A stretch of DNA of 6,070 bases, taken from the IMG/VR virus record IMGVR_UViG_2529292869_000013; one strand, written 5' to 3'. Position numbers and translations under genes: made by a program. Positions within the stretch are counted from its first letter, which is position 1. Every line of letters begins with the position of its first letter. This stretch comes from a virus. Its lineage: Duplodnaviria; Heunggongvirae; Uroviricota; Caudoviricetes. Below, one piece after another: positions 1,407 to 4,989 of the stretch. The notes below the pieces were generated by a model. That model searched no databases, was not told the origin of the DNA, and saw only the letters and a program-made list of their open reading frames with translations.

Positions 1407-1408
1407 GT

Positions 1409-1437
1409 CCATAAGAAAGCCCCTCCGGAGAGGGGCT
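1409..1437 (-). terminator. Hairpin with weak U-tract, minus-strand orientation (possible terminator)
   Basis: 8-bp stem AGCCCCTC / GAGGGGCT (1418..1437) with 4-nt loop. On the minus strand it is followed by TTCTTAT. Lies back-to-back with the plus-strand terminator. Confidence 0.3.
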
Positions 1438-1633
1438 GGAGAGTGGCGCTATGTGCCATTGCATGGTGCCGGGTGCCTCCCGGTGAATTCAGTACCAGCA
1501 CCTGAATCCGCGATTATCCCATATACCTACTCGCTGATTGCCCCTCCGCACAGGGGGATTCACCATGCCAGTTTCTTTTAACAAACTCCCCGCAAACCAG
1601 ACAACAGTCAACCGCCTGAATTGTGAGACATTT

Positions 1634-1673: not shown

Positions 1674-1750
1674 TGGCGCGTTGTACTGGATTCGAACCAG
1701 TGACCGATTGCTTAGAAGGCAATTGCTCTGTCCGGCTGAGCTAACAACGC
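1674..1750 (-). tRNA. argO: tRNA-Arg, anticodon UCU
   Basis: 77-nt cloverleaf folded by hand: perfect acceptor stem GCGTTGT/ACAACGC, D-arm GCTC...GAGC, anticodon stem ATTGC/GCAAT with loop CTTCTAA, T-arm ACTGG-TTCGAAT-CCAGT, discriminator G, encoded CCA. Symbol assigned by position in the ileZ-argN-argO cluster recalled from 933W-type phages. Confidence 0.85.
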
Positions 1751-1763
1751 AGGATACAGATAA

Positions 1764-1840
1764 TGGACCGCCTTCGGGGACCCGAACTCCGCGCAACCAG
1801 CTTCGAAAGCTGGCGCTCTTTCCTGATGAGCTAATGGCGG
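1764..1840 (-). tRNA. argN: tRNA-Arg-like, anticodon UCG by hand folding; imperfect stems
   Basis: D-arm GCTC/GAGC and anticodon stem CCAGC/GCTGG are perfect, loop TTTCGAA, encoded CCA. The acceptor stem has an A-A mismatch (6-67), the T-stem has an A-C mismatch and the T-loop is TTCGGGT. Symbol is positional only. Confidence 0.5.
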
Positions 1841-1847
1841 TATGTGA

Positions 1848-1923
1848 TGGTGGCCCTTGCTGGATTTGAACCAGCGACCTGGCGATTATGAGTCGCTCGC
1901 TCTCACCACTGAGCTAAAGGGCC
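1848..1923 (-). tRNA. ileZ: tRNA-Ile2-like, anticodon CAU (ileX/ileZ type, presumed lysidine-modified)
   Basis: 76-nt cloverleaf: acceptor GGCCCTT/AAGGGCC, D-arm GCTC-AGTGGTGA-GAGC, anticodon loop CTCATAA, T-arm GCTGG-TTCAAAT-CCAGC, encoded CCA. Closely resembles the E. coli ileX sequence as I recall it. Confidence 0.85.
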
Positions 1924-1951: not shown

Positions 1952-2665
1952 TCAATAATCAAGCCCTTGCCTGGATACATATCTGTCTGGCGGGAAGCCA
2001 TAATAGCGGTGAAATACAGAAATAAAGTAGGACCAGCTTGAATAACCACATTTTTCTGCTACAGCCTGTCCATATCCATACCGGGAACATAACATATTGA
2101 CAGCAACACGCATCCGCTCTTCCAGCAACAAGCGACTGAACATGTGCCCTTCATTTTTCAGTTTTGTCTTTAACAAACTCTCACTCATATGCAGGCGTAA
2201 CGCAATCGCACCAAGCGTCCAGCTTGCTGATATATCTGTCTGAATTATCGCCCTGACTTTGGCACTTATACTGGATAAACATCCACTTAAAAACAATGAC
2301 ATCCGTTCATCTGTTTCAAACAGAGACAGGCAGGCCATCATAAGAAACATATCCGTGACCTCTCCGGAAAATCCCTGGCTGGTAATTAAAGCCGCAGCCA
2401 ACGCAGGATTGTTGGGTTCCAGCAACAGGTAAAGCGGAATGTCAGTCAGATGAGTTCTTGTCAGCTTATGCTGAATTTCCAGATATTGACTTACTATGGA
2501 ATGGTTTATATCGAAAATTTTAACTTTGCCATAATGCATAAGGAAAAGCGCCCTGATGCATTTGGTGGCCAGAACGACTGAGCCTGGCTTAAGTGACAAC
2601 GTATCCTTTTCAAGAAAAATATTAATTGGGGAGCAAACCATGATAACTGAACAGACAACAGCCAT
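1952..2665 (-). CDS. AraC-family transcriptional regulator, AppY/GadX/YdeO-like
   Basis: 237-aa ORF. N-terminus MAVVCSVIMVCS parallels AppY MDYVCSVV as recalled. C-terminus has the AraC-type HTH signature (LCSRYGYGQAVAEKCGYSSWSYFISVFHRYYGFPP). AT-rich, roughly 30% G+C on a hand-counted line. Confidence 0.75.
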   Translation of the reverse strand: MAVVCSVIMVCSPINIFLEKDTLSLKPGSVVLATKCIRALFLMHYGKVKIFDINHSIVSQYLEIQHKLTRTHLTDIPLYLLLEPNNPALAAALITSQGFSGEVTDMFLMMACLSLFETDERMSLFLSGCLSSISAKVRAIIQTDISASWTLGAIALRLHMSESLLKTKLKNEGHMFSRLLLEERMRVAVNMLCSRYGYGQAVAEKCGYSSWSYFISVFHRYYGFPPDRYVSRQGLDY

Positions 2666-2790: not shown

Positions 2791-2816
2791 ATAAAAAAGC
2801 CTTCAGGACTGAAGGC
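2791..2816 (-). terminator. Intrinsic terminator overlapping the stop codon of the small ORF
   Basis: 7-bp stem GCCTTCA/TGAAGGC (2799..2816) with 4-nt loop, followed on the minus strand by TTTTTTATTT (2798..2789). Confidence 0.5.
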
Positions 2817-3000
2817 GTCTGTAACAACCGAACTGATAGTCTGCCAGACCCGCCATAACCAGCTGGGTCAGTATTAACTGGCAGCGTTCGCGTGAAAGGT
2901 AAGTATTCTGCGCAATCTCCCCGACTGTCGCCGGTTCGGTAACGCTTAATTCATTAAACACCACTCTGGCGGTTTCTGTCATATCCTGCTGTTTCAGCAT
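2803..3000 (-). CDS. Small (65 aa) putative winged-helix DNA-binding protein; family uncertain, possibly PapI/FaeA-like
   Basis: Complete ORF with ATG at 3000 and its own downstream terminator. The segment PATVGEIAQNTYLSRERCQLILTQLVMAGLA has the look of a helix-turn-helix recognition unit. No family could be assigned with confidence. Confidence 0.5.
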   Translation of the reverse strand: MLKQQDMTETARVVFNELSVTEPATVGEIAQNTYLSRERCQLILTQLVMAGLADYQFGCYRRLQS

Positions 3001-3124: not shown

Positions 3125-3146
3125 AAAAAACCCGCTCAGAGGCGGG
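3125..3146 (-). terminator. Intrinsic terminator downstream of the CPBP gene
   Basis: Minus-strand reading CCCGC-CTCTGA-GCGGG followed by T6 (complement of A6 at 3125..3130). Confidence 0.45.
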
Positions 3147-3287
3147 GTCAAGCTATGCGGCGAAATAACCACTCTTAACAGCATACCTGATTTTTTACGT
3201 ACGTAAATGCTTTGCCGTGCATATTTTTCATGCAAATGTCACGTCCTGCTATTTTTCAGTCTTATAAATTTAAAACCATAGAAAAAA

Positions 3288-4106
3288 TCAATTATGTTTT
3301 AAAAATGGATAGGTAAAGAATAACAAGTGACACAGATTCAAACCAAAATGGAAAAGGGTGGCAACCCACAAACGCCCACTCCACATCCATGACAATCCAT
3401 ACACAACACCAGATAACGTGGCAAATAATACAAGTAAAGCACCACCTGAATAGTGATAAAAACCAAACAACAAAGCCGCCACAATTAATGCAACCAATGG
3501 AGACGTTACTTCTGATAGCCGTGATTGAATATACCCTCTAAATAATGATTCCTCTGCCAGAGACACAAAAAACAAATTAGCCAATATAAACTCTGGCAAC
3601 CACTCAGGAAAATGAATCTCTGGCTTTAATCCACCAAAAAAAACAGCCAAAAACAGGATAAGAGGAACAGAGAGCGACAGAGCCCCCCACTTCCACAAAG
3701 ACACTTCTGATTTTACTTCTTTTTTAAACAAAGAAGATGTACACAGGACTAACAAAAATGGCACCAGCGCTTTATCAAAATTAAAATACATTGTATAGGG
3801 AGTACTTTGAGGGCCAACAGTAACAGAATTTAGCACTACAGGATTGTGAAACCCTGGCCATAGATGGAAAAATAATGCTATGGCTGATAAAACTATGCCA
3901 ACTTCATATATAGATTTAGCCCAGGCGTTATATTTCCAGTTGAACTTCAAAATAATAAAAAAAACGATTGTAGCAACAAAAAATAACACCGACCAATCAA
4001 TAATATCATTAAGCACAGCCAGGACAACAGACACCGTCAACAATGAAAAAGCCACTACCTTATGCCAACTGAGAGTTGACAGTGACAGTACTAACACAAT
4101 CCACAT
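3288..4106 (-). CDS. CPBP-family intramembrane metalloprotease (CAAX protease / Abi domain), multi-pass membrane protein
   Basis: Highly hydrophobic translation with multiple predicted TM segments. All three CPBP signature motifs are present in order: EESLFR (EExxxR), FGFYH (FxxxH), HFGLN (HxxxN). Start chosen as ATG 4106..4104 with SD AAGGAG 5 nt upstream; the track's GTG at 4112 directly abuts the SD. Roughly 30% G+C. Confidence 0.75.
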   Translation of the reverse strand: MWIVLVLSLSTLSWHKVVAFSLLTVSVVLAVLNDIIDWSVLFFVATIVFFIILKFNWKYNAWAKSIYEVGIVLSAIALFFHLWPGFHNPVVLNSVTVGPQSTPYTMYFNFDKALVPFLLVLCTSSLFKKEVKSEVSLWKWGALSLSVPLILFLAVFFGGLKPEIHFPEWLPEFILANLFFVSLAEESLFRGYIQSRLSEVTSPLVALIVAALLFGFYHYSGGALLVLFATLSGVVYGLSWMWSGRLWVATLFHFGLNLCHLLFFTYPFLKHN

Positions 4107-4137
4107 AAGCACTCCTTTTATTTAATGATGAAGATTG

Positions 4138-4166
4138 ATTATCAATATTTTCAATTCACCAGGCAA
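4138..4166 (-). promoter_or_regulatory. Candidate sigma70 promoter (TTGCCT-N17-GATAAT) between Q and the CPBP gene; possibly the late promoter region
   Basis: Minus-strand -35 TTGCCT (4166..4161) and -10 GATAAT (4143..4138), about 30 nt upstream of the CPBP start. A second TATAAT sits at 4222..4217 with a poor -35. Hexamer match only. Confidence 0.25.
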
Positions 4167-4257: not shown

Positions 4258-4629
4258 CTACCGCATATCCATATCTAACCGGACATTCAGAGCCATAAGC
4301 ATTCCTTCAATAATACCTTCCGCTTTATAAAGCCTTTTACCAATAAGCCCATCAGAACATCTATGCTTACGTGCAAGAGCCATAAATGTCATTCCACCTA
4401 CGTAATAATCCACCAACAAATCGTGCAAATACTGATTATTCTTGTTTAATCGTGCCATACAACCACAAATTATCATGGCGTCATCATCAGAACACTTAGG
4501 ACGTGATTTCACTTTAGTCGGGATTAATCCTTTAAAACCAGCAGCTATCGAGGGCCATGTTACATCTTCATGATTATTTGCTGCCCATGCCCCCCATCGC
4601 TCAAGAACCATCTGGATATCACGCGCCAT
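4258..4629 (-). CDS. Phage late-gene antitermination protein Q (short QuuD/phage-82-like type)
   Basis: 123 aa from ATG 4629..4627 (SD GAGGTGG upstream; the GTG at 4638 abuts the SD). Cys-rich ([21 protein letters not shown]), consistent with a zinc-binding Q. Sits immediately after rusA with overlapping stop/start, as in DLP12. Confidence 0.7.
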
Positions 4630-4989
4630 CGTTACCACCTCTGATTTCGTAAATCTTCACGCCCAGCCGTCCACCTGGCACAGGCTGACCGCGCACAATA
4701 TTGATTTCATCAAACTGCTCGTCATCAATGAGCACTTCCGCATGCGTCAGCGCATCCAGCGGTGCTTTCAGAATGTTGTCCAGGTCACGGCGGCGCTTAT
4801 CCGGTGGTTCTGCAATAATTTTTATGCCAGCCGTCCGGACAGGCTTAATTTCAGCCGCTGCTGGCGAACAATAAGCGCCACAGCCCGGCGATAACGCTCA
4901 CCGGCTTTTGATACAAAATATGTGCTGCCACGACGTCGCCAGTAGGTGTTCACCGTCGGCGGGTAAGGCAAAACAAACTCTATACGCAT
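4619..4989 (-). pseudogene. rusA: rusA Holliday-junction resolvase, interrupted by a -1 frameshift near 4822..4826
   Basis: ATG 4989 with SD AAGAGGT gives MRIEFVLPYPPTVNTYWRRRGSTYF...LSGRLA then TAA at 4824..4822. The +2 frame continues [68 protein letters not shown], matching the RusA C-terminal half, to TGA at 4621..4619. The break sits at a run of five T (4819..4823). Confidence 0.65.

What the first reader, a model, noticed from the sequence alone, without database searches (positions are those of the whole stretch)
3288..4106. Orphan CPBP/Abi-family intramembrane protease with intact catalytic motifs
The ORF retains all three motifs that define CPBP proteases (EExxxR, FxxxH, HxxxN), so it is likely catalytically competent. 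Members of this family are linked in established literature to bacteriocin self-immunity and prenyl-protein processing, and the domain name derives from abortive-infection proteins. No bacteriocin, substrate or partner gene is visible beside it. A prophage-borne orphan of this kind could act as immunity against a bacteriocin made elsewhere or as a membrane-based superinfection-exclusion or abortive-infection factor.
Basis: partly seen in the sequence, partly recalled or inferred. Interest (0 to 1): 0.65.

Follow-up and report, generated by a model that had tools for sequence, protein, structure and literature searches.

The report
Prophage-carried CPBP membrane protease gene
The ORF is a real, intact, selectively maintained CPBP/Rce1-type membrane protease gene that lambdoid prophages of Shiga-toxin-type E. 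coli carry just after their Q antiterminator gene; databases already annotate it as such, and no evidence links it to bacteriocin immunity or phage defence.

Summary
A 272-aa ORF on the minus strand (4106 to 3288, ATG with an AAGGAG ribosome-binding site) matches Pfam PF02517 at E = 1.4e-19. It carries EExxxR, FxxxH and HxxxN once each. Its confident model matches only the two solved CPBP folds, SpdC and Rce1.

The window is an EHEC lambdoid prophage: DUF968, rusA, Q, CPBP, a short promoter/terminator element, a small wHTH gene, a PsrA/PsrB-like AraC regulator, tRNAs and nanS-p. RefSeq already names the protein a CPBP family intramembrane glutamic endopeptidase. It occurs in 572 of 5,426 complete E. 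coli genomes.

What I add:
- Every phage-borne copy examined lies directly after Q, next to two unrelated Q families.
- In a simple tree these copies form one clade inside a family of solitary chromosomal genes of Enterobacterales, which sit at a conserved modF–gpmA/gal position.
- dN/dS is 0.12–0.26.
- Here the gene probably lies between Q and the late promoter and has its own promoter.

No bacteriocin gene, partner gene or defence-system match was found in any locus. It is best read as an autonomous accessory envelope protease with an unknown substrate: a new member of a known kind, of modest interest.

The parts
3288..4106 (-). CPBP/Rce1-like intramembrane glutamic endopeptidase gene, 272 aa plus stop
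3537..3554 (-). Motif 1, EESLFR (E185 E186 ... R190), carrying the catalytic glutamates
   Evidence: Single occurrence. E185, E186 and R190 are invariant in 24 homologs.
3453..3467 (-). Motif 2, FGFYH (F214 ... H218)
   Evidence: Single occurrence. F214 and H218 are invariant.
3336..3350 (-). Motif 3, HFGLN (H253 ... N257)
   Evidence: Single occurrence. H253 and N257 are invariant.
3768..3869 (-). Subfamily-specific conserved non-helical loop, residues 80-113 (HLWPGFHNP...GPQS.P.TMYFNFDKA), with a predicted beta-hairpin
   Evidence: Invariant H81, P84, G85, N88, G98, S101, M106, Y107, N109, D111, K112 and A113. Strands at 90-95 and 104-107 in the model. It lies outside the Pfam-matched stretch 171-260. 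A periplasmic location is only inferred from positive-inside counts.
4112..4117 (-). Shine-Dalgarno sequence AAGGAG, 5 nt before the ATG at 4106
   Evidence: Read directly from the sequence.
4138..4166 (-). Candidate own sigma-70 promoter, TTGCCT-17 nt-GATAAT; predicted transcription start near 4131
   Evidence: Consensus scan. Both hexamers are retained in copies with 83-97% identical CPBP. L146 has TTGTCA-17-GATAAT, 10 of 12. This is weak evidence: the region is AT-rich and promoter-like sites are common in it.
4258..4629 (-). Q antiterminator gene (Q21 family), always immediately upstream of the CPBP gene
   Evidence: Pfam PF06530 at 8.7e-52. Weak sequence match to Q21 structures 6p18 and 6jnx. 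Linkage to CPBP in 572 of 605 genomes with this Q allele and in every phage locus examined.
3126..3207 (-). 82-nt conserved element downstream of the CPBP gene, probably the Q-responsive late promoter pR' (TTTACG 3207-3202, 16 nt, TATGCT 3185-3180), a short leader, and terminator tR' (stem-loop 3146-3131 plus T tract)
   Evidence: Terminator scan and RNA fold. In Stx2a phage L008 the core of the element, from window 3180 onward (-10-like hexamer, leader and terminator), begins 37 nt after the Q stop codon. The element lies just upstream of the holin gene in phage 2G7b. TATnnT is kept in L003, L004 and L008, while the upstream part varies with the Q allele. Similarity to the Stx1d prophage ends exactly at 3131.

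Best explanation
The ORF encodes a catalytically competent CPBP (Rce1-like, glutamic-type) intramembrane endopeptidase. It belongs to a distinct, uncharacterised subfamily of about 272 aa.

This subfamily is normally a solitary chromosomal gene in many Enterobacterales and in Pseudomonas aeruginosa. Lambdoid phages appear to have captured it once. They carry it as an accessory ('moron') gene in the variable slot between the Q antiterminator gene and the late promoter and lysis genes.

In this window the gene sits between Q and the probable pR'/tR' element. It has its own ribosome-binding site and a candidate sigma-70 promoter, and it is followed by a terminator. It could therefore be transcribed in the lysogen from its own promoter, and together with Q from the early rightward operon after induction.

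By analogy with Rce1, E185/E186 would activate water, and H218, H253 and N257 would complete the active site inside the membrane. The enzyme would cut a membrane-embedded or membrane-proximal peptide. That substrate is not encoded next to the gene, so it is most likely a host envelope component or an incoming peptide or protein.

Shown: identity, fold, motif integrity, purifying selection, Q linkage, and absence of a partner gene. Inferred: protease activity, expression pattern, and the nature of the substrate.
For: Family and fold:
- Pfam PF02517 at 70.6 bits.
- The three motifs occur once each and are invariant across homologs of 47-84% identity.
- The model has pLDDT 92.9 and pTM 0.90.

Functional constraint: dN/dS is 0.12-0.26 against six phage-borne alleles of 59-97% amino-acid identity.

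Autonomy:
- Chromosomal orthologs are single genes at modF-CPBP-gpmA in Providencia, Photorhabdus and Xenorhabdus, and at modF-x-CPBP-galTKM in Serratia.
- The gene lies between unrelated genes in Dickeya.
- It lies at gpmI-CPBP-M23 peptidase in P. aeruginosa.

Phage capture and Q linkage:
- All 42 loci, and those, have Q directly upstream.
- L139 and L140 have a CPBP copy after an unrelated Q family, PF03589.
- Phage copies form one clade in a neighbour-joining tree.

Moron features:
- The CPBP gene has 37.7% GC and the Q-CPBP spacer 28.5%, against 54.7% for DUF968.
- Other prophages hold different cargo in the same slot.
- Promoter-like and terminator-like sites flank the gene.
Against: - No biochemical or genetic data exist for this protein or any close homolog in the searchable literature.
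- Promoter prediction is weak in AT-rich DNA: 13 sites found against 6.7 +/- 2.7 expected.
- The pR' assignment of the 82-nt element rests on comparative inference, not on a mapped transcription start.
- In L139 and L140 a strong terminator lies between Q and the CPBP gene. There the gene is downstream of tR' and could be a Q-dependent late gene. Expression timing is therefore not uniform across phages, and a role in the lytic cycle remains possible.
- CPBP-fold proteins can act without proteolysis. LnsB takes part in lipoprotein N-acylation (PMC7387801, listed).
- No hit was found in 50,697 sequenced phage genomes. The carriers may be mostly defective prophages.
Confidence: 0.6

Rival explanations
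1. Immunity to a membrane-targeting peptide toxin made elsewhere, such as a class II microcin or bacteriocin. The protease would bind or cleave the peptide at the inner membrane and protect the lysogen. This mirrors the Abi/CPBP immunity proteins found in Gram-positive class II bacteriocin loci.
For: The catalytic motifs that define the family are intact. The gene is an accessory cargo gene in gut E. coli of cattle and humans. A stand-alone, 'orphan' arrangement fits protection against a toxin made by other cells. The precedent of Abi immunity proteins in Gram-positives comes from my own knowledge (Kjos et al. 2010) and was not checked here.
Against: No bacteriocin or microcin gene lies next to any of about 125 loci examined. 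Plasmid-borne homologs are mostly on chromids or mis-assigned chromosomes, and none of the features annotated under the matches is a bacteriocin gene; their flanks were not examined. Chromosomal orthologs sit at a conserved housekeeping position in several families, which suggests a general cellular role. No such immunity has been described for Gram-negative bacteria in the literature I could search.
Confidence: 0.12
2. Membrane-based superinfection exclusion or abortive infection. The protease would cleave an incoming phage's DNA-ejection or tape-measure proteins, or would trigger membrane damage on infection.
For: It is a prophage-encoded inner-membrane protein that may be expressed in the lysogen. 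The Q-to-lysis interval is a cargo slot with variable content.
Against: It matches no PADLOC model at E <= 0.1. The alternative cargo in the same slot is not recognisable defence either. Orthologs are stable chromosomal genes outside mobile or defence contexts. Steady purifying selection gives no sign of an arms race.
Confidence: 0.1
3. A lytic-cycle function. The protease would be made together with Q, or as the first late gene, and would process a phage or host membrane protein such as a holin or antiholin, a SAR endolysin, a spanin or a Hok-type toxin. This would tune lysis timing or membrane physiology during phage development.
For: The gene always lies between Q and the lysis cassette, whatever the Q family or holin type. 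No terminator is predicted between Q and the CPBP gene here, so early-operon read-through would include it. In L139 it lies after the Q-controlled terminator and just before the holin gene.
Against: Chromosomal orthologs exist with no phage genes nearby, so the activity is not specific to phage. The associated holin families differ: Phage_holin_2_1, holin_3_1, and holin_8 with holin_3_7. Most related lambdoid phages do without the gene: 2,288 genomes have the downstream backbone segment against 572 with the CPBP gene.
Confidence: 0.13
4. A non-proteolytic CPBP-fold protein. It would act as a membrane scaffold or regulator of a host enzyme or sensor kinase (as reported for SpdC and Abx1), or as part of an acyl-transfer system (as for LnsB).
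For: The closest solved structure is SpdC, which was crystallised as a partner of the glucosaminidase SagB. LnsB is a CPBP-family protein involved in lipoprotein N-acylation (PMC7387801).
Against: All catalytic residues are invariant across the subfamily, which points to retained chemistry. No partner gene is conserved next to it.
Confidence: 0.08
5. A decaying passenger gene with no current function in a defective prophage.
For: There is no hit in sequenced phage genomes. Three IMG/VR loci have frameshifted copies: L052, L057 and L058. The neighbouring rusA is frameshifted in this window.
Against: dN/dS is 0.12-0.26 over substantial divergence. The ORF is full-length in 572 genomes. The motifs are invariant.
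Confidence: 0.04

Closest known systems
CPBP / Rce1-like intramembrane glutamic endopeptidases (Pfam PF02517, formerly 'Abi'); structural prototype MmRce1, PDB 4cad
   Different: Sequence identity is only about 17%, and a profile of the subfamily finds no PDB sequence at E <= 1. To my knowledge bacteria have no prenylated CAAX substrates. The subfamily has an extra conserved loop (residues 80-113) outside the Pfam core.
Staphylococcus aureus SpdC / LyrA ('lysostaphin resistance A'), PDB 6u0o
   Different: Identity is 13-14%. SpdC works as a partner of SagB and lies in a Gram-positive envelope. No SagB-like partner is present here, and here all catalytic residues are invariant.
Abi-type bacteriocin immunity proteins of Gram-positive class II bacteriocin loci (for example PlnI, SkkI; Kjos et al. 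2010, from my own knowledge)
   Same: They share the protein family and motifs, and they are small polytopic membrane proteins.
   Different: Those genes lie inside bacteriocin operons. This one never has a bacteriocin neighbour. It is Gram-negative and phage-borne.
Myxosortases and related Mrt CPBP proteases (NCBIfam MrtP, MrtC, MrtX, MrtS, MrtJ)
   Same: There are weak domain-level matches to the shared CPBP core.
   Different: Scores are far below the curated cut-offs, for example 33 against 250 bits for MrtP and 29.6 against 100 for Mrt_core. No cognate C-terminal sorting-signal proteins are known in E. coli.
Lambdoid-phage accessory genes in the Q-to-lysis interval (stx in Stx phages, the lc/nmpC porin, the DNA methylase)
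   Same: It occupies the same genomic slot, has an unusual base composition, is variably present among related phages, and has its own expression signals.
   Different: The product is a membrane protease rather than a toxin, porin or methylase. Unlike most such cargo it has stayed linked to Q through divergence down to 55-62% amino-acid identity.

Membership tests
CPBP / Rce1-like (PF02517) | Significant match to the family profile above the curated threshold | tested here: met
   70.6 bits against a cut-off of 22.4, E = 1.4e-19, profile positions 3-92 of 93.
CPBP / Rce1-like (PF02517) | Motif 1, EExxxR, with two adjacent glutamates | tested here: met
   EESLFR at residues 185-190. E185, E186 and R190 are invariant in 24 homologs.
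CPBP / Rce1-like (PF02517) | Motif 2, FxxxH | tested here: met
   FGFYH at residues 214-218. It is invariant.
CPBP / Rce1-like (PF02517) | Motif 3, HxxxN | tested here: met
   HFGLN at residues 253-257. It is invariant.
CPBP / Rce1-like (PF02517) | Polytopic alpha-helical membrane fold like Rce1 and SpdC | tested here: met
CPBP / Rce1-like (PF02517) | Glutamate-dependent endopeptidase activity | not testable with these tools
   This needs an enzyme assay or mutant phenotypes.
Abi-type bacteriocin immunity proteins | Encoded within or next to a bacteriocin locus | tested here: not met
   No bacteriocin-like gene lies in the window, in 42 or more phage loci, or in 80 chromosomal loci.
Abi-type bacteriocin immunity proteins | Confers resistance to a cognate bacteriocin | not testable with these tools
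   This needs sensitivity assays.
Known anti-phage defence or abortive-infection systems (PADLOC-DB 2.0) | Match to a defence-system protein model | tested here: not met
   No family matches at E <= 0.1.
Known anti-phage defence or abortive-infection systems (PADLOC-DB 2.0) | Preferential location in defence islands or hotspots | tested here: inconclusive
   The phage slot holds variable cargo, but that cargo is not recognisable defence. Chromosomal orthologs lie in housekeeping synteny.
Myxosortase (Mrt) CPBP proteases | Score above the NCBIfam equivalog or domain cut-off | tested here: not met
   The best scores are 33.1 against 250 (MrtP), 31.3 against 130 (MrtS) and 29.6 against 100 (Mrt_core).
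Lambdoid-phage accessory gene ('moron') | Lies between conserved phage modules, is variably present among related phages, and differs in base composition | tested here: met
   It lies between Q and the late promoter/terminator element. Related prophages have other cargo or none there. GC is 37.7% against about 55% in DUF968.
Lambdoid-phage accessory gene ('moron') | Own promoter and terminator allowing expression from the repressed prophage | tested here: inconclusive
   There is a conserved promoter-like site at 4166-4138 and a terminator at 3146-3131. No transcript data are available.

The most novel reading that the evidence does not exclude
Lambdoid phages captured a housekeeping envelope protease that most E. 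coli genomes do not carry, and kept it welded to the Q gene for a long time, because it changes the lysogen's inner membrane to the phage's advantage. For example, it might destroy membrane-inserting peptides such as class II microcins, Hok-type toxins or foreign holins. It might instead cut the ejection proteins of superinfecting phages. Either would be the first CPBP-based immunity or exclusion mechanism described in a Gram-negative bacterium or a phage. Because the gene sits beside stx1d or the PsrA/PsrB regulator in pathogens, it could also affect the fitness of Shiga-toxin-producing E. coli in the gut.
Probability: 0.2. Interest if true: 0.6.

Novelty: new member of a known kind. Interest (0 to 1): 0.35.

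Why it matters
Bacterial CPBP proteases are very common, yet few have a known substrate, and to my knowledge almost none in Gram-negative bacteria. This one offers a clean genetic handle. It is a single autonomous gene present in about 10% of complete E. coli genomes, mainly Shiga-toxin-producing and attaching-effacing lineages. No copy was detected in the other complete E. coli genomes by DNA search, so gain-of-function tests in a strain without it should be simple.

Its constant position after Q, in one case directly upstream of stx1d, makes it part of the regulatory neighbourhood that controls toxin and late-gene expression. Its conserved chromosomal orthologs mean that a substrate found here would probably explain a whole family in Proteus, Providencia, Serratia, Enterobacter and Pseudomonas. 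As it stands, it is an annotated but uncharacterised accessory gene, not a surprise.

Tried and rejected
- PADLOC scan of the CPBP protein, the AraC regulator, the wHTH protein and the 41-aa ORF. There was nothing for the CPBP protein and only noise-level hits for the wHTH protein.
- tblastn against 50,697 phage genomes: no hit. The gene is known only from prophages.
- Literature searches for CPBP with prophage or O157, for the locus tags flanking psrA/psrB, and for recent CPBP reviews. I found no study of this gene.
- A possible P. aeruginosa ortholog, PA5132/PA14_67780. One paper reports a biofilm-related transposon hit in its promoter. I could not verify that PA5132 is the gene seen, so this remains only a lead.
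- A profile of the subfamily against PDB sequences: no hit at E <= 1. Only fold comparison links it to solved structures.
- The 41-aa ORF at 3235-3110 as a partner. I rejected this because it has no family match and overlaps the promoter/terminator element.
- The 65-aa wHTH gene (phrog_331) as a partner. I rejected this because it occurs in about 2,290 genomes, mostly without the CPBP gene, and is absent next to the CPBP gene in L005, L050 and L053.
- Locating pR' from the published Q21 binding site. The paper's text does not give the sequence, and this Q is only distantly related to Q21. I used comparative evidence instead.
- The idea that pR' lies in the Q-CPBP spacer, with the CPBP gene inside the pR'-tR' leader. 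I consider it less likely. A 77%-identical Q in L004 shares no spacer sequence but does share the 82-nt element.
- Other cargo of the same slot (the NA37 protein and two unknown proteins in FORC_069) tested against PADLOC and Pfam. No defence assignment came out.
- Membrane topology from positive-inside counts. It gives plausible cytoplasmic loops but does not place the catalytic residues consistently, so I make no claim about which side the active site faces.
Full report
**1. What is in the window**

The 6,070-base window matches lambdoid prophages of E. coli O157:H7 and other Shiga-toxin-producing or attaching-effacing lineages over its full length at 98.2-98.6% identity. All genes are on the minus strand. 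In order they are:
- a DUF968 protein (6051-5002);
- rusA, broken here by a 1-nt deletion;
- a Q antiterminator (4629-4258; Pfam PF06530 at 8.7e-52, with a distant match to the phage 21 Q structures);
- the ORF in question (4106-3288);
- a short non-coding element with a terminator (3207-3126);
- a 65-aa winged-helix gene (3000-2803, phrog_331);
- a 237-aa YdeO/GadX-like AraC regulator (2665-1952);
- three tRNA genes (1923-1674);
- the 5' part of a nanS-p-type SASA esterase gene that runs off the window.

The AraC-type gene is of the kind described as PsrA/PsrB. These are prophage-encoded regulators of acid resistance and type III secretion in EDL933 (PMC10877973, read). I did not determine which of the two it is.

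**2. Check of the observation**

The ATG at 4106 follows AAGGAG by 5 nt, and the alternative GTG at 4112 overlaps that site. The product is 272 aa, identical in extent to RefSeq WP_000265265.1, 'CPBP family intramembrane glutamic endopeptidase'.

It matches Pfam PF02517 at 70.6 bits, against a cut-off of 22.4. The motifs EESLFR (185-190), FGFYH (214-218) and HFGLN (253-257) each occur exactly once.

In an alignment of 24 homologs that share 47-84% identity with it, E185, E186, R190, F214, H218, H253 and N257 are invariant. An AlphaFold model built from that alignment is confident, with pLDDT 92.9 and pTM 0.90.

**3. Where else the gene occurs**

The DNA is present once per genome in 572 of 5,426 complete E. 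coli genomes, nearly always at 99% identity or more. A more sensitive search adds only two genomes. The listed carriers are O157:H7, O55:H7, O111, O145, O103, O121 and similar strains.

No sequenced phage genome in a collection of 50,697 encodes it. A PHROG family does exist for it (phrog_13291), and 40 prophage-derived IMG/VR contigs carry it.

Full-length homologs of about 50% identity and the same length are spread across Enterobacterales: Providencia, Proteus, Photorhabdus, Xenorhabdus, Serratia, Pantoea, Enterobacter, Cedecea, Dickeya and Erwinia. They also occur in P. aeruginosa and two Helicobacter isolates. More distant relatives occur in Vibrio, Aeromonas, Burkholderia and Xanthomonas.

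**4. The chromosomal relatives are solitary genes at a conserved position**

I called ORFs in 80 chromosomal loci and clustered the neighbours. In Providencia, Photorhabdus and Xenorhabdus the order is modABC-modE-modF-CPBP-gpmA-aroG-pnuC-nadA. In Serratia it is modE-modF-(an isochorismatase-like gene)-CPBP-galT-galK-galM.

Other genera have other neighbours. In Dickeya the gene lies between a cupin gene and an amino-acid permease gene. In P. aeruginosa it lies between gpmI and an M23 peptidase gene.

No neighbour recurs across these different arrangements; those that recur belong to the conserved modF-gpmA/gal backbone. None looks like a bacteriocin, a substrate with a sorting signal, or a defence gene. 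'Orphan' is therefore a property of the whole subfamily. It argues for an enzyme that works on its own on something common in the cell envelope.

**5. The phage-borne copies are linked to Q**

In all 42 phage loci analysed together, Q lies immediately upstream, 120-150 nt away. The same holds in several other cases:
- an Stx1d prophage, where a Q-CPBP-terminator block 87% identical in DNA to the window is followed by stx1dAB;
- E. coli and Shigella prophages whose CPBP protein is only 62% and 59% identical;
- E. albertii/E. coli prophages with the minimal order Q-CPBP-holin-lysozyme-Rz-terminase.

A copy with 55% identity follows a Q of an unrelated family (PF03589) and precedes a holin gene, in two different replication backbones. 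Of 605 genomes with this window's Q allele, 572 have the CPBP gene.

In a neighbour-joining tree the phage copies form one clade nested among the chromosomal ones. The tree has no bootstrap support, so this is only suggestive. The picture fits a single capture followed by long residence in the Q-to-lysis interval.

The gene is under purifying selection. dN/dS is 0.12-0.26 in pairwise comparisons with six alleles of 59-97% amino-acid identity. Three IMG/VR loci have frameshifts, so occasional decay occurs.

**6. Transcriptional setting**

The interval between Q and the late genes holds variable cargo in related prophages:
- In strain NU14, Q is followed within 80 nt by the terminator, then by the wHTH gene and a DNA methyltransferase gene.
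- In FORC_069, three genes on the opposite strand lie between Q and the conserved element.
- In E21845, an ORF6N pseudogene lies there.
- In phage 2G7b, an OmpC-like porin gene lies just upstream of the element, which itself lies just before the holin gene.

The 82-nt element at 3207-3126 contains TTTACG, 16 nt, then TATGCT, and about 35 nt later a GC-rich hairpin with a T tract.

Several comparisons point the same way. In an Stx2a phage, the core of the element (from window 3180 onward) begins 37 nt after the Q stop codon, leaving no other room for a late promoter. Across four loci the -10-like hexamer keeps the pattern TATnnT: TATGCT, TATCCT, TATTGT and TATGTT. The sequence upstream of it is shared only between loci whose Q proteins are similar (the window and L004, 77% identical). 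It differs where the Q proteins are 41-46% identical. Phages with a Q of another family share only the terminator and what follows it.

This is the pattern expected if the element is the Q-specific late promoter pR' with its short leader and terminator tR'. I consider that likely but not proven.

It follows that here the CPBP gene lies between Q and pR'. It is not a Q-dependent late gene. No terminator is predicted between Q and the CPBP gene, so early-operon transcripts that reach Q would continue into it.

A promoter-like site, TTGCCT-17-GATAAT (4166-4138), lies about 25 nt before the ribosome-binding site. It is kept in alleles of 83-97% identity, and one group has TTGTCA-17-GATAAT. This allows expression from the repressed prophage, but promoter-like sites are frequent in this AT-rich DNA.

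In the phages with the PF03589-type Q, a strong terminator lies between Q and the CPBP gene instead. There the gene is probably downstream of tR'. The slot is conserved; the position relative to pR' is not.

**7. What it most likely does**

The sequence and fold support a glutamate-dependent intramembrane endopeptidase of the Rce1 type. In that mechanism the paired glutamates activate water, and the two histidines and the asparagine complete the site. This mechanism comes from established work on Rce1 and was not tested here.

The subfamily also has a strongly conserved non-helical stretch at residues 80-113, with a predicted beta-hairpin. It lies outside the Pfam core and is a candidate substrate-binding element. 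Positive-inside counts across the family place loops 54-64, 124-139 and 190-203 in the cytoplasm and the conserved stretch in the periplasm. I could not place the active site consistently, so I make no claim about which side it faces.

No partner or substrate gene is linked in any context, and orthologs are stable chromosomal genes. The substrate is therefore most likely a common envelope component or an incoming peptide or protein. The gene behaves as an accessory gene that adds this activity to lineages that otherwise do not carry it.

**8.

Nothing I found supports bacteriocin immunity, superinfection exclusion or abortive infection specifically:
- There is no PADLOC match.
- No bacteriocin gene lies next to any locus.
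- Plasmid-borne homologs are mostly on large secondary replicons, and nothing annotated under those matches is a bacteriocin gene.
- The other cargo of the same phage slot is not recognisable defence.

None of these ideas is excluded either. A lytic-cycle role deserves equal standing because of the constant position before the lysis genes. A non-proteolytic role has precedent in the family, in SpdC and LnsB.

**9. Comparison with what is known, and novelty**

The protein meets every sequence and fold criterion of the CPBP family that I could test. It fails the criteria for myxosortases, with scores far below the cut-offs. It also fails the criterion for bacteriocin-locus immunity proteins, since it has no such locus. 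RefSeq already annotates it correctly, and I found no paper on it.

The new points are comparative: the long-standing Q linkage, the apparent single capture from a family of solitary chromosomal genes at a conserved position, and the probable position upstream of pR'. I rate it a new member of a known kind, with modest interest (0.35).

Noticed in passing
window 3126-3207 (minus strand): An 82-nt conserved element: TTTACG, 16 nt, TATGCT, a short leader and an intrinsic terminator. The element, or its terminator-proximal part, occurs in about 2,290 E. coli genomes and 96 phage records. Its core begins 37 nt after the Q stop codon in an Stx2a phage. It is probably the late promoter pR' with tR', and it would give a transcript of about 50 nt, comparable to the short pR' RNAs of Stx phages.
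   Followed up: partly
window 1952-2665 (minus strand): A 237-aa YdeO/GadX-like AraC-family regulator of the PsrA/PsrB type. These are prophage-encoded regulators of acid resistance and type III secretion in EDL933. I did not determine which paralog it is.
   Followed up: partly
window 4618-4989 (minus strand), deletion near 4824: rusA carries a 1-nt deletion relative to EDL933 (GGCAATAAAA becomes GGCATAAAA). This truncates the ORF to 55 aa, so rusA is a pseudogene in this strain, unless it is a sequencing error.
   Followed up: yes
window 2803-3000 (minus strand): The 65-aa winged-helix gene (phrog_331, weak TrmB-like match) is intact here but annotated as frameshifted in EDL933. It is a widespread backbone gene downstream of tR' (SfV orf47, Stx2 phages). 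Its function is unknown.
   Followed up: partly
window 1407-1597 (minus strand): A strong Rfam match to the sRNA STnc100 (138 bits against a gathering score of 47). It lies between the tRNA cluster and the nanS-p esterase gene.
   Followed up: no
window 1674-1923 (minus strand): Three tRNA genes with anticodons CAT (annotated tRNA-Ile in RefSeq), TCG (Arg) and TCT (Arg). They stand in the position that precedes stx in Stx phages, but no toxin genes follow them here.
   Followed up: no
L005 (E. coli RM8082, NZ_CP043825.1) 2987-6341: An Stx1d prophage carries the same Q-CPBP-terminator block (87% DNA identity) directly upstream of stx1dA/B. There the CPBP gene lies between Q and a Shiga toxin operon.
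   Followed up: partly
L003 (E. coli FORC_069) 5313-7704: The same slot between Q and the 82-nt element holds three genes on the opposite strand: an NA37-family nucleoid-associated protein and two proteins with no Pfam or PADLOC match. This is an uncharacterised cargo module.
   Followed up: partly
L016/L017 (Pseudomonas aeruginosa) 6001-6819: A homolog (about 60% identical over the C-terminal three quarters; 50% over the full-length alignment) lies between gpmI and an M23 peptidase/CtpA-like protease cluster. It may be PA5132/PA14_67780, for which one paper reports a biofilm-related transposon hit. I did not verify the identity.
   Followed up: partly
L148 1068-3612: An E. coli prophage that carries the CPBP gene has a CTD10-MC6-DUF2326 gene trio in its early region. 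It looks like a possible conflict or defence module unrelated to the finding.
   Followed up: no
L139/L140 5741-6001 and 4591-4851: In phages with a PF03589-type Q, a promoter-like site (TTGATT-18-TATGCT) and a strong terminator lie between Q and the CPBP gene. There the protease gene appears to be the first gene after tR'.
   Followed up: partly
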